From contig OX597839.1 in assembly GCA_951406725.2 (NCBI GenBank), positions 11,904,001-11,968,000 on the forward strand: a DNA stretch of 64,000 nucleotides, read 5' to 3'. The notes under the pieces were generated by a model. It had not been told where the DNA came from, did no database searches, and saw nothing but the letters and a program-made list of their open reading frames with translations. Below are positions 38,668 through 45,442 of this stretch, piece by piece; the stretch's first letter is position 1; the number at the start of each line of letters is the position of its first letter. The position numbers and the translations under genes are program-made. This stretch comes from Octopus vulgaris (Eukaryota).

Positions 38668-39095
<428 letters not shown>

Positions 39096-39182: not shown

Positions 39183-39346
39183 TATACGACAGGCTTCTTT
39201 CAGTTTCTGTCTATCAAATCCACTCATAAGGCCTTGTTCGGCCCGTGGCTATAGTAGAAGACACTTGCCCAAGTTGCCATGCAGTGGGACTGAACCCGGA
39301 ACCATGTGGTTGGTAAGCAAGCTACTCACCACACAGCCACTCCTGC
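39183..39346 (-). mobile_element. SINE family A, 5' half
   Basis: Reverse complement of the head. Confidence 0.88.
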
Positions 39347-39606
39347 GTTTTCTTTTATTTTACATTAATCATTGCTTTATTCATTTATTTTTGCATTTTA
39401 ATTTTCCATTTTATAGTTTTCCAAACAATTTACGATTGGCGAACATACAATCTGTTTCGTAATTGAAATTATGTGCCTGCCTTGCATGAAACTGCAGACT
39501 TCGGAGCCTCCAGCATACTTTGCCGCTATATCGCACCACCACTCCACCGCTCCAGCTACCACTACCTCACATACAAATCACAAAAACAAAGACAAAACAA
39601 TAATAC

Positions 39607-42124: not shown

Positions 42125-43184
42125 CAGTGGTGGTGGGGGAGCATAACGTGGAAAATGATAGATAATTCACCAAATTGTTTATATTACACCACCAGCAACC
42201 TGTCATAAATATAATTTTAACACAAGTTTATAGCAGTATAAAGAGACAATTTATTGAATATGTCTACCACAGCTTTCACACGCCGCCTCAAGGCGTCATG
42301 ACACTTCCTGATGAAGTACTCAGACATGTTGTCCCACTCTTCCCTCGGGATTTGCTTAAAATGAACAAAACTTGGATGCAAAGTTCTGTTGGTAGAGTGC
42401 TTCAATTTGCCCCATACAGCATAGTCCAGGGAGTTCAAGTCTGGGCCGGAAGAAAGGTAGAAGCCGGTAGGCTAAAAGTCTGCGAAGTTGTCTTTGTAGA
42501 ATTTCTGCACTTTATTCGCCGTATGAGCAGGAGAAGCATCTTGGGTCCACACATAATTACTGTTGGGGTAGTTAGACTTCAGCCCAGACAAAACCTTATA
42601 CCGCAGGACTTTATAATAAATGTCAGCCCCCACATCTTTTCTCCAGACTTGAAAAAATGGAGAAGCATCTTTTTATCGTCAGACGTCACTACCAGTATCA
42701 TGACATGAGCTGGGGGCTTGGTCCCAAAGACGCCCTTTACTTCAAAATGTGACTTAGCAATGCGACGTTTTAAAACAGCATCAAAGGTAAAGATATTTCC
42801 ATCTGAAAAGATTTTGACTGTTTGTTCATTGTGCTTCAGGTATCGCAACACTTTTTTGGCCCTTTCATGCCTTTTGGCGTTCATTGCATGAGTCAATAGG
42901 TGTCTCGGAGTCCTCACGTAAGATCCCAAATATAAATCAGTGTGTACAACTTTTCTTAACGTCGTAGACATTGCACACAGAGACCCCAACTACGGCTAAT
43001 TGTAATCCAGCACGGAACAAATCTGCAAAGCGTTGTCTCTTGGCTTAAGTGGACATGTTAGATCGTATGACTTAAATTAGCTCTACATACACCCACCTTG
43101 AAATAGAAAACATTATTTTAGTTACGCTCAGGGATATATGAAAAATAGGCCTCCAAAATATTTAAAGTTTTGCTTCCCAGCCTA
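42125..43184 (-). mobile_element. maT-like (DD37D) Tc1/mariner transposon remnant
   Basis: IFSD.., WTQDASPAH and GPDLNSLDYAVW with 37 residues between the second and third Asp. Stops, frameshifts and degenerate TIRs in TA context. Confidence 0.88.
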
Positions 43185-43204
43185 TATATATATATATATA
43201 TATA

Positions 43205-43466
43205 TATAATAAATGAAATAAAACATATGCATATATATAAACATATATGTACGTACCTACCTCTACATGTACATATACACGCATTTATGAGTACAGGACA
43301 CCAAAGGGACGTCGAACACAAAGAGAAACGAAAACATAGACACAAACCAAAGGAAATGGACATGTTTTTAAAAACAACAAAAAATGGAGTACAGGACAAT
43401 TAACACAAAACCCCTTCTTCAGTCGCTATGGTTTCATCTACTCTACGTTTCGAAGGATAAAAGCGA
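43205..43466 (-). mobile_element. PLE-like fragment ending at the predicted hammerhead cleavage site
   Basis: Close homolog of 44969-45335. Similarity stops after plus-strand aaaagcga (43466). Confidence 0.75.
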
Positions 43467-43515
43467 TAGTATGTATGTATAGTATGTATGTATGTATGTA
43501 TGTATGTGTGTATGT

Positions 43516-43583
<68 letters not shown>

Positions 43584-43625
43584 ATGTATGTATGTATGTA
43601 TGTATGTATGTATGTATGTATGTGT

Positions 43626-43972
43626 GGAGGCGCAATGGCCCAGTGGTTAGGGCAGGGACTCGCGGTCGTAGTATCACGGTTTCGATTCCCAGACCGGGCG
43701 TTGTGAGTGTTTATTGAGCGAAAACACCTAAAGCTCCACGAGCCTCCGGCAGGGGGTGGTGGTGGTCCCTGCTGTACTCTTTCGTCACAACTTTCTCTCA
43801 CTCTTTCTTCTGTTGGTCTGCTTGCTTAGCCAGCGGGGTGGAGTCATTTGAAGGCTAAAACAATGCGAAGTGCATTGTGACCAGCGATGTGTAGCAACAA
43901 ACAATGCGAAGCGCATTGTGACCAGCGATGTGTAACAACAACTGATAGCCTGGTCGGTCACGGTGATCACGG

Positions 43973-43975
<3 letters not shown>
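43626..43975 (+). mobile_element. SINE family C relative with a different tail
   Basis: ggaggcgcaatggcccagtggttagg...gtttcgattccc. Shares acacctaa(a)gctccacg with the 35858 copy. Confidence 0.88.
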
Positions 43976-44041
<66 letters not shown>

Positions 44042-44045
<4 letters not shown>

Positions 44046-44270
44046 TTAGAAGTAGAAATGTAGTCTACAGCATAAGGTGCATAGAGGGTGCTTGTAAAGA
44101 CAACAGCATGACATACATCGGAGACTAAATGCTCATTTGAGACAATATGACGACAAAAAAACAGTCCTCCATACTCTACCAACATGCCAAAGACCAACAA
44201 AGAGGCATACTGAGTCGACTTGACATTTTATCCAAACACCCGAAGGACCCAACACTCTGTCGAATGTAAA
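44042..44270 (+). pseudogene. Penelope-like GIY-YIG endonuclease fragment
   Basis: RNVVYSIRCIEGACKDNSMTYIG, then HLRQY..K/QSSILYQH..ILSKHPKDPTL. Directly follows a (TA)n tract. Confidence 0.75.
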
Positions 44271-44352
44271 TAATGTAAATAAAATTCTGCAGTTTATATT
44301 TATCTGTTCTCTGTTTTAGTGTTTGTTCAGTATGTGTGAATGTGCGCGTATG

Positions 44353-44403
<51 letters not shown>

Positions 44404-44897
44404 GTATGTGTGTATGCGCGCGTATATAAGCGTATGTTTATATGTACCTGGGTGTGAGTGAGGGTGTTGCTTTATGTTTACGTTAAAATGTATACGCAAG
44501 TGTTTGTTTTATGTGAATGTACACCACCAGTAAATCTATCTTACATTAGTATTGTTTTTTAAACGCTATCTGTTCGCTTCTATTAATTACCTAGGCCTGT
44601 AATTTAGAGCAGGTCTAGACAGTTTAAGACAGTTCTACTGGGGCTTGTGTTTATTATAAATTGCGGTAAACTACAACTGTATCTGTGGACAGAAAAAGGA
44701 ACAATGTTACCTTATCTTTATCAATGTGTATTTTTATCAGCCTGAAAACATATCTATCTGTTCAGATATCTACATACATATAAGGGAGATGACCACTAAG
44801 TGGACATCCATTATGCTAGAGGTAGACCCCATATGGTCTGACCACTATATCTGTATAGCTTTCATTCTATCCATCTGTCAGCTCATCCATCTTGACA

Positions 44898-44971
<74 letters not shown>

Positions 44972-45153
44972 AATAAAATATATGCATATATATAAACATA
45001 TATGTACGTACCTACCTCTATACATATACACGCATATATGTGTACAGGACACCAAAAAGACGTCGAACACATAGAGAGACGAAAAACATAGACACAAACC
45101 AAGGAACAAGACAGGCAAAAAAAAGGAGATACAGGACAATAAGCACAACGAAA

Positions 45154-45216
45154 ATCCCCTTCTTCAGTCGCTAAAGTTTCATCTACTAAACGTTTCGAAG
45201 GATAAAAGCGAGACGT
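45154..45216 (-). ncRNA. Candidate non-circularly permuted hammerhead ribozyme in a PLE-like fragment (44969-45335)
   Basis: ACGU-C-UCGCU-uuu-AUCCUUC-GAAA-CGU-(17 nt)-AGCGA-CUGAAGA-AGGGGAU. GUC triplet; all core nucleotides present. Confidence 0.75.
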
Positions 45217-45345
45217 ATACTTCGAATGAAAAATTCCTTCCTGCGAAAAGCAAATCAATTAAAATTCTGAGATCTTGTCGCAGAGGGTAAAAAGCAAGAC
45301 GGTAACGACAGTACAAACATATAAACAGTAAAAAATATGTATATA

Positions 45346-45385
<40 letters not shown>

Positions 45386-45442
45386 TATATATATATATTT
45401 ATATATATATATATATATATTACCTATGTATATGTCCGTCTG

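What the first reader, a model, noticed from the sequence alone, without database searches (positions are those of the whole stretch)
43411..43470. A sister copy terminates exactly at the predicted ribozyme cleavage site
Seen: 43205-43466 closely matches 44969-45335, but on the plus strand it reads aaaagcga|tagtatg where the longer copy reads aaaagcga|gacgtat. On the element strand it therefore begins at UCGCU, the first nucleotide after the GUC cut. Inference: this is what a reverse transcript of a self-cleaved RNA would look like, and it independently supports in vivo activity. It is a single observation and could be a chance truncation; the 39046 copy ends about 9 nt further in.
Basis: partly seen in the sequence, partly recalled or inferred. 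Interest (0 to 1): 0.75.

Follow-up and report, generated by a model that had tools for sequence, protein, structure and literature searches.

The report
Genomic footprint of rewired hammerhead cleavage
Shortened copies of a common non-coding jumping repeat begin far more often at or just after the predicted cut of an unusually wired hammerhead RNA than just before it, which likely means the RNA cuts itself in the animal before being copied into the genome; cutting has not been tested at the bench.

Summary
Confirmed: the 43205-43466 copy starts at the first base after the predicted GUC cut. One copy proves little, so I ran the genome-wide histogram. Among copies with a pure AT flank, 154 of 1760 end in the 19 nt from -4 to +15, against 13 of 1361 in the 19 nt upstream (9-fold). 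A matched test gives 15 ends at +1/+2 and 0 at -1/-2. Exact +1 is a minor class (9 of 100); 58 of 100 end at +6..+10, at TA-like letters. Ends stay about 3-fold high to +63, and most copies read through the site. The element is an 833-nt non-coding Penelope-type repeat in (TA)n. Its hammerhead has the non-circular S-G-C order, with covarying stems I and III, and its stem II partner seems to come from upstream. The same fold sits behind Naiad ORFs, which were reported to lack canonical hammerheads. Best reading: a self-cleaved RNA ends reverse transcription and the join trims a few bases (R2 precedent). Cleavage is untested and no autonomous partner of this family was found. The scan noted this ribozyme before on other DNA of this genome.

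The parts
43205..43466 (-). 5'-truncated copy (262 nt) that starts at +1 (or +2) of the predicted cut. It lacks the cleavage triplet and both upstream strands, so it cannot form the ribozyme itself.
43467..43624 (.). Microsatellite flank (TACA/CA/TA repeats) at the 5' junction; its last letters TA make the junction ambiguous by one base
44969..45335 (-). Longer 5'-truncated copy (starts at -124), between (TA)n runs; carries the only intact motif in the window
   Evidence: window scan: one S-G-C hit; 98-99% identical to 39 other genomic places
45155..45240 (-). Predicted hammerhead in S-G-C order with upstream strands P0 and P4a
45235..45240 (-). P0 (GAAGGA, -29..-24): six Watson-Crick pairs with 45197-45202; likely the 5' strand of stem II
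45226..45231 (-). P4a: pairs with 45177-45182 (extra helix distal to stem III)
45207..45216 (-). S block: stem III strand (45216-45213), C17 (45212), predicted cut between 45212 and 45211, stem I strand UCGCU (45211-45207)
   Evidence: sequence
45190..45202 (-). G block: stem II strand (45202-45197), GAAA (45196-45193), stem III strand (45193-45190)
   Evidence: sequence
45161..45172 (-). C block: stem I strand AGCGA (45172-45168) and CUGAAGA core (45167-45161)
38842..39090 (-). Third, more diverged copy (70% identity); starts at +10, inside the main truncation peak
38810..38841 (-). About 32-nt extension behind the third copy's 3' end, resembling the sequence that follows the 3' end in tandem units; likely the optional Penelope-type tail
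   Evidence: one search compared by eye (L052 ends at the same letters)

Best explanation
5'-truncated copies of this 833-nt non-coding repeat pile up at and just after a predicted hammerhead cut and are scarce just before it, likely because part of the element's RNA has cut itself, so that reverse transcription would run out of template there. Shown: fixed 3' end about 245-260 nt downstream of the site, (TA)n targets, tandem arrays, covarying stems I and III, the histogram of ends. Inferred: a Penelope-type (probably Naiad) enzyme nicks (TA)n, starts copying at that fixed internal point and moves toward the RNA 5' end. On a cleaved RNA it stops at +1. The cDNA end is then joined to the target, usually after losing 5-9 nt so that 1-3 letters pair with TA. 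Copies that read through (the majority) would come from uncut or religated (circular) RNA, or from a template jump. The 43411 copy is one of the rarer untrimmed products.
For: 19-nt tiles of AT-flanked ends: about -83..-65: 23 (4 are the element's own T-run); -23..-5: 13 of 1361; -4..+15: 154 of 1760 (9.2-fold, Fisher p 9e-26); about +17..+38: 52; +44..+63: 47; the 19 nt before an anchor that starts at +144..+161: 18. Matched W12+C test: 15 vs 0 (p 6e-5). Script tally of the 100 listed rows of 154: 8 upstream, 9 at +1, 7 at +2..+5, 58 at +6..+10, 18 at +11..+15; none at -1, -2 or -4. The TATA stretch at -8..-5 offers a longer microhomology than +8..+10 but holds 3 of 100 ends (6 if three possible CpG-decayed rows are added). 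In 44 rows from other subfamilies (hand count among the 100 listed of 205) none extends upstream of the cut and 3 start at +1. In the Naiad-type motif 3 of 6 rows are cut-compatible (2 events). Structure: 92.9% of cells paired, 11 pairs with double changes, 0/500 shuffles, slid controls 37-52%. Triplet GUC/GUA/GUU in 64 of 76 motifs. Precedent: R2 junctions are variable and microhomology-primed where the ribozyme cuts at the element's end (PMC3774820, abstract).
Against: Exact +1 is a minor class: 9 of 100, and in the CUGCCC subfamily 0 of 30 scored and 2 genome-wide. Five of 100 end at -3. Ends stay about 3-fold high from +17 to +63, which stalling in the folded RNA also predicts. Most units read through: 1361 keep -4..+18 intact against 1760 anchors (different anchors, so approximate), and 29 of 30 unselected loci read through with 0 at +1 (that anchor cannot see ends beyond +5). 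Four tiles have no denominator, and three of them cover only part of the subfamilies. The filter sees only pure-AT flanks and misses the 43411 copy itself. Stem II in the canonical register is weak and shows no covariation. For a Poseidon PLE, hammerhead cleavage was dispensable in vitro and no reads ended at the site (PMC11167929). No ORF was found upstream of the window-type motif.
Confidence: 0.72

Rival explanations
1. No cleavage: reverse transcriptase stalls in the folded RNA (stem II helix, or a hairpin between -15..-5 and +8..+18), and TA-like letters at +6..+10 fix the junctions.
For: The main peak lies at the distal end of the P0 helix and at TAT/TTA letters. Ends are raised over the whole folded domain to +63. 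The hairpin folds at -6.2 and -5.1 kcal/mol in the two window subfamilies.
Against: It does not predict 15 vs 0 across one phosphodiester bond. The better microhomology at -8..-5 is rarely used. That hairpin is weak (-2.8) or replaced by other folds in the other subfamilies, yet they show the same peak (11 of 30 at +8 in the CUGCCC subfamily).
Confidence: 0.18
2. +1 is a transcription start (internal promoter), so the RNA begins there without cleavage.
For: It gives the same boundary; a promoter in the pLTR is proposed for PLEs (PMC11167929).
Against: The boundary follows the base after N17 in subfamilies whose letters around it differ. No untemplated G precedes +1 in the 9 scored rows; this is weak, since the cap-derived G is recalled from other RTs. 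A start inside stems I/III would not explain their covariation.
Confidence: 0.07
3. The pile-up is an artefact of the AT-flank filter, later deletions or assembly, and the 43411 end is chance.
For: Only AT-flanked copies were counted, and the 43411 junction is ambiguous by one base.
Against: The same filter was applied to all six tiles, and within the key tile it favours upstream ends. Reversed-pattern controls gave 0-1 matches. A search without a flank filter shows the same pile-up by eye.
Confidence: 0.03

Closest known systems
Type-SGC non-circularly permuted hammerhead (HRIMA-1 and variants; Eckert et al. 2023, PMC10085705; parts 1, 3, 4, 5 of 8 and passages read, supplements not opened)
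   Same: Block order S-G-C, full core, short linker (3-4 nt) from stem I to stem II, covarying stems I and III.
   Different: [quoted passage not shown] Here the motif sits in well over a thousand genomic copies, the better stem II partner is an upstream strand, and the extra helix pairs upstream, not downstream.
R2 retrotransposon HDV-like ribozyme (Eickbush et al. 2013, PMC3774820, abstract; PMC11331408, passages)
   Same: A ribozyme sets the template's 5' end; junctions are variable and microhomology-primed when cleavage leaves no target homology.
   Different: Other ribozyme class, placed at the element's 5' end and processing an rRNA co-transcript. Here it lies about 250 nt from the 3' end and most copies read through it.
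Animal non-LTR retrozymes (Cervera and de la Pena 2020, PMC7229834, passages; Li et al. 2026, bioRxiv 10.64898/2026.07.22.740005, part 1 of 5 and passages)
   Same: Non-coding tandem repeats with one hammerhead per unit, thought to be Penelope-derived; near-identical units within an array.
   Different: Those carry type I hammerheads in units of 150-450 bp. This unit is 832-875 nt and the order is S-G-C.
Naiad Penelope-like elements (Craig et al. 2021, PMC8557442; passages, supplement parts 1, 24, 25 and search hits)
   Same: (TA)n targets, 5' truncation, partial tandems, optional tail. The published Naiad_Ovul and Naiad_Obim 3' ends match a motif in this genome that has the same S-G-C fold and follows the RT C-terminus in 9 of 25 loci.
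   Different: Reported to lack canonical hammerheads (Naiad_Ovul marked HHR_half_core). The window family has no ORF, and its link to Naiad rests on fold and insertion style only.
Poseidon PAc of Anolis (Frangieh et al. 2024, PMC11167929; parts 1-2 of 4)
   Same: Internal start of reverse transcription, a tail between two start sites, AT-rich targets, a hammerhead near the start site.
   Different: Canonical hammerhead, cleavage not needed in vitro, and no reads ending at its site. Here genomic ends mark the site.

Membership tests
Hammerhead ribozyme | Core CUGANGA, GAAA and NUH triplet | tested here: met
   GUC 26, GUA 22, GUU 16 of 76 motifs; N7 is A 45, U 30, G 1. Motifs were selected on the two core words, the register was chosen by best pairing among three offsets, and some truncated copies were left in.
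Hammerhead ribozyme | Stems I and III with covariation | tested here: met
   (19 sequences picked to span subfamilies): stem I 5 of 6 and stem III 3 of 5 pairs with double changes; 0/500 shuffles; the sequences are related, so this is not a probability
Hammerhead ribozyme | Stem II continuous with A9 | tested here: not met
   first pair unpaired in 19 of 19, two G-U pairs, no double change; one WC pair (two in L205) in Naiad-type loci. The upstream P0 strand is 97.9% paired but invariant within the family; it changes on both sides only between families
Hammerhead ribozyme | Site-specific self-cleavage | not testable with these tools
   Only the indirect genomic footprint
Type-SGC hammerhead | 5'-3' order S, G, C with short stem I to stem II linker | tested here: met
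   Sequence 45216-45161
Type-SGC hammerhead | Uninterrupted C block, and a helix joining the other sides of stems I and II | tested here: not met
   the linker pairs better upstream than downstream in 23 of 24 representatives; stem II as above
Non-LTR retrozyme | Non-coding tandem repeats with a hammerhead in each unit | tested here: met
   14 arrays, spacing 832-875 nt; no coding frame found in the unit
Non-LTR retrozyme | Type I hammerhead, 150-450 bp monomer | tested here: not met
   S-G-C order, 833-nt unit
Non-LTR retrozyme | Linear and circular monomer RNA | not testable with these tools
   No raw RNA reads were offered
Penelope-like element (insertion style) | Fixed 3' end with optional 30-40-nt tail, 5' truncation, partial tandems, inversions, microsatellite targets | tested here: met
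   (terminal tail in 1 of 59 loci plus the window's third copy); one head-to-head inversion
Penelope-like element (autonomous) | RT plus GIY-YIG ORF | tested here: not met
   None upstream of the window-type motif
Naiad | Descent from, or mobilisation by, a Naiad ORF | tested here: inconclusive
   9 of 25 Naiad-like RT ends are followed by the Naiad-type S-G-C motif and 0 of 25 by the window-type motif, within 1.5 kb

The most novel reading that the evidence does not exclude
This is a hammerhead wired outside the six published block orders: S-G-C with the stem II strand supplied from upstream, so the chain is broken between A9 and position 10.1. It cleaves in the animal's germ line and is the regular 3' module of one branch of Naiad retroelements (octopus, and by eye squid and an ostracod) and their non-coding parasites. 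The genomic ends record that cleavage.
Probability: 0.55. Interest if true: 0.85.

Novelty: new variant of a known kind. Interest (0 to 1): 0.72.

Why it matters
What hammerheads do in Penelope-like elements is open: the one in vitro system found cleavage dispensable, and Naiads were thought to do without canonical ones. A boundary of 5' ends at the predicted cut is evidence from the genome itself that cleaved RNA serves as template, and it fixes the exact bond to test. If the fold holds, it moves non-circularly permuted hammerheads from environmental RNA into an animal genome at high copy number, and shows that standard descriptors miss a whole class.

Tried and rejected
Rfam: nothing at gathering score; only sub-threshold matches in 43150-45400, none a hammerhead. 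RNA data: no RNA holder listed; contigs only, uninformative on ends. Autonomous partner: two candidate upstream stretches (L151, L196) proved to be other repeats, with no window-type motif behind them in the other 19 loci of each search; no intact Naiad ORF in 8 longer stretches. Canonical type I/II/III fold in one unit: the block order excludes it; a fold across two units 833 nt apart was not tested. First family split misassigned an intermediate subfamily and was redone; one row (L318, T-run deletion) begins at +1 by eye but is not in the count of 9. Recurrent 4-nt loss at the cut junction: 0 further cases in the subfamilies tested. Second helix after A9: partner not constant, inconclusive. 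Inverted or second element copy within 700 nt upstream of truncated copies: 0 of 30. Nematode and spider Naiad 'half cores' look canonical (C before G) by eye, so not all half cores are S-G-C. PMC5785218 was not held; anything on minimal PLE hammerheads is recalled.

Full report
Observation. The short copy (43205-43466, minus strand) begins with TCGCT, which in the long copy follows GTC (cut predicted between 45212 and 45211). The match covers 44969-45211 only, at 83%, and the two copies are of different subfamilies. The flank ends in TA, so the junction is +1 or +2. The third copy ends at +10.

The element. The genome is 2.8 Gb and probably an octopus: a motif in it equals the 3' end of the published Naiad_Ovul consensus. 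The unit is about 833 nt and non-coding. It occurs singly or in arrays of 2-4, sits in (TA)n, and has a fixed 3' end about 245-260 nt downstream of the site, an occasional tail and scattered 5' ends. Units within an array are nearly identical: 12 of 20 pairs have no substitution, mean 1.7 against 7.5 between arrays. This fits repeated copying of one RNA but also later duplication.

The ribozyme. The blocks run S, G, C, the non-circular order called type SGC by Eckert et al.. One core pattern has 1963 genomic matches. Stems I and III covary across subfamilies (76 motifs; 19 chosen sequences, 92.9% paired, 11 pairs changed on both sides, 0 of 500 shuffles, slid controls 37-52%). The triplet is GUC, GUA or GUU in 64 of 76. 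Stem II is the odd part. The bases after CUGANGA give an A-C mismatch, two G-U and two G-C pairs without covariation, and almost nothing in the Naiad-type motif. A strand at a fixed place upstream (-27 to -29; -22 in the Naiad type) that starts with G gives 5-6 Watson-Crick pairs in 20 of 24 representatives, 4 in three and 2 in one. It is 2.6-8 kcal/mol more stable than the canonical register in the 8 loci computed. It is invariant within the window family and changes on both sides between families. It may be the true stem II or an off-switch; only mutagenesis can tell.

The test of the finding. I counted copies whose 5' junction has a pure AT flank, in 19-nt tiles: about -83..-65, 23 (4 are the element's own T-run); -23..-5, 13 of 1361; -4..+15, 154 of 1760; about +17..+38, 52; +44..+63, 47; the 19 nt before an anchor at +144..+161, 18. 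The key ratio is 9.2. The other four tiles lack denominators; the two anchors checked match 23-24 of 30 unselected loci, and about 71 of 100 rows belong to the subfamilies that sees. The 100 listed rows of 154 were fetched and scored: -8: 2, -6: 1, -3: 5, +1: 9, +2: 1, +3: 2, +4: 2, +5: 2, +6: 9, +7: 9, +8: 29, +9: 10, +10: 1, +11..+15: 18. A matched whole-genome pair (AT run followed by C) gives 15 ends at +1/+2 and 0 at -1/-2. Other subfamilies show the boundary too: 0 of 44 upstream by hand count, and 2 of 30 upstream with 11 of 30 at +8 in the CUGCCC subfamily. There the +1 spike is weak (2 genome-wide). Against a simple reading: exact +1 is a minor class, ends stay raised to +63, five rows end at -3, and most units read through (1361 intact junctions; 29 of 30).

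Mechanism. The shape is background upstream, an abrupt rise at +1, a peak at the first TA-like letters and a slow decay. That is what a template that ends at +1 would give if the cDNA end is trimmed and joined by microhomology, as described for R2 elements whose ribozyme cuts at the element's end (abstract, passages, which report that many joins need no microhomology). Stalling in the fold may add to the raised shoulder but does not predict a step across one bond. A closed circle has no end, so the pile-up needs linear cleaved RNA. Two copies that end at +8 and +9 are 5' parts of longer arrays (L079, L084), so one insertion can pass one site and stop at the next; a template jump, partial cleavage or a re-cut circle would do that. 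All of this is inference; no RNA ends were seen.

Naiad link. Craig et al. report no canonical hammerhead in Naiads and mark Naiad_Ovul as half core. In this genome 9 of 25 Naiad-like RT ends are followed by an S-G-C motif with the same helices, and 3 of 6 AT-flanked truncations of it are cut-compatible. By eye, the published ostracod Naiad-4_Dst has the order, stems I and III, P4 and P0, and squid Naiad_Esco has the order, stems I and III and P4 but no clear stem II. Nematode and spider half cores look canonical. No ORF carrying the window-type motif was found, so the Naiad partner is likely, not shown.

Novelty. Searches of the held library found no description of a non-circularly permuted hammerhead in an animal genome or of end enrichment at a PLE hammerhead site; subscription papers are largely missing from that library. 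The scan's own notes describe this ribozyme repeatedly on other DNA of this genome, one of them also mentioning ends at the cut. I saw them after and count them as no support. Verdict: observation confirmed, interpretation partly supported and sharpened; new variant of a known kind; interest 0.72.

Noticed in passing
L322 (G000:C2:154336551 and 154337383): Both units of a tandem pair lack the same 4 nt just before the cut (-4..-1), as if one RNA with a nibbled junction was copied twice; the analogous loss was not found in other subfamilies.
   Followed up: partly
G000:C1:11963319-11963375: Head-to-head inversion whose two arms start at about +8 and +11, inside the truncation peak.
   Followed up: no
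window 45181-45189 and 45217-45225 (minus): The purine-rich internal loop between stem III and P4 holds AGUA opposite GAA, like a bulged-G/loop E motif (motif recalled); it may bend the helix back toward stem I.
   Followed up: no
window 45195-45226 (minus): An alternative hairpin (-6.2 kcal/mol) would hide the GAAA block in the youngest subfamilies; possible brake on cleavage.
   Followed up: partly
window about 45243-45286 (minus): A long hairpin upstream of P0 (GCGA...UCGC arms), visible by eye in several subfamilies.
   Followed up: no
G000:C11:40733198 and C19:34291189: Reverse-complemented tail sequence joined directly in front of the G block, a sign of inversion or snap-back at the tail.
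   Followed up: no
L333-L351: An unrelated repeat of about 800 nt with a sharp shared 5' start, partly copied upstream of L196.
   Followed up: partly
window 39190-39350 and 43625-43960: Two other short repeats beside the copies, probably SINE-like; ARAGORN finds no tRNA gene in the window.
   Followed up: no
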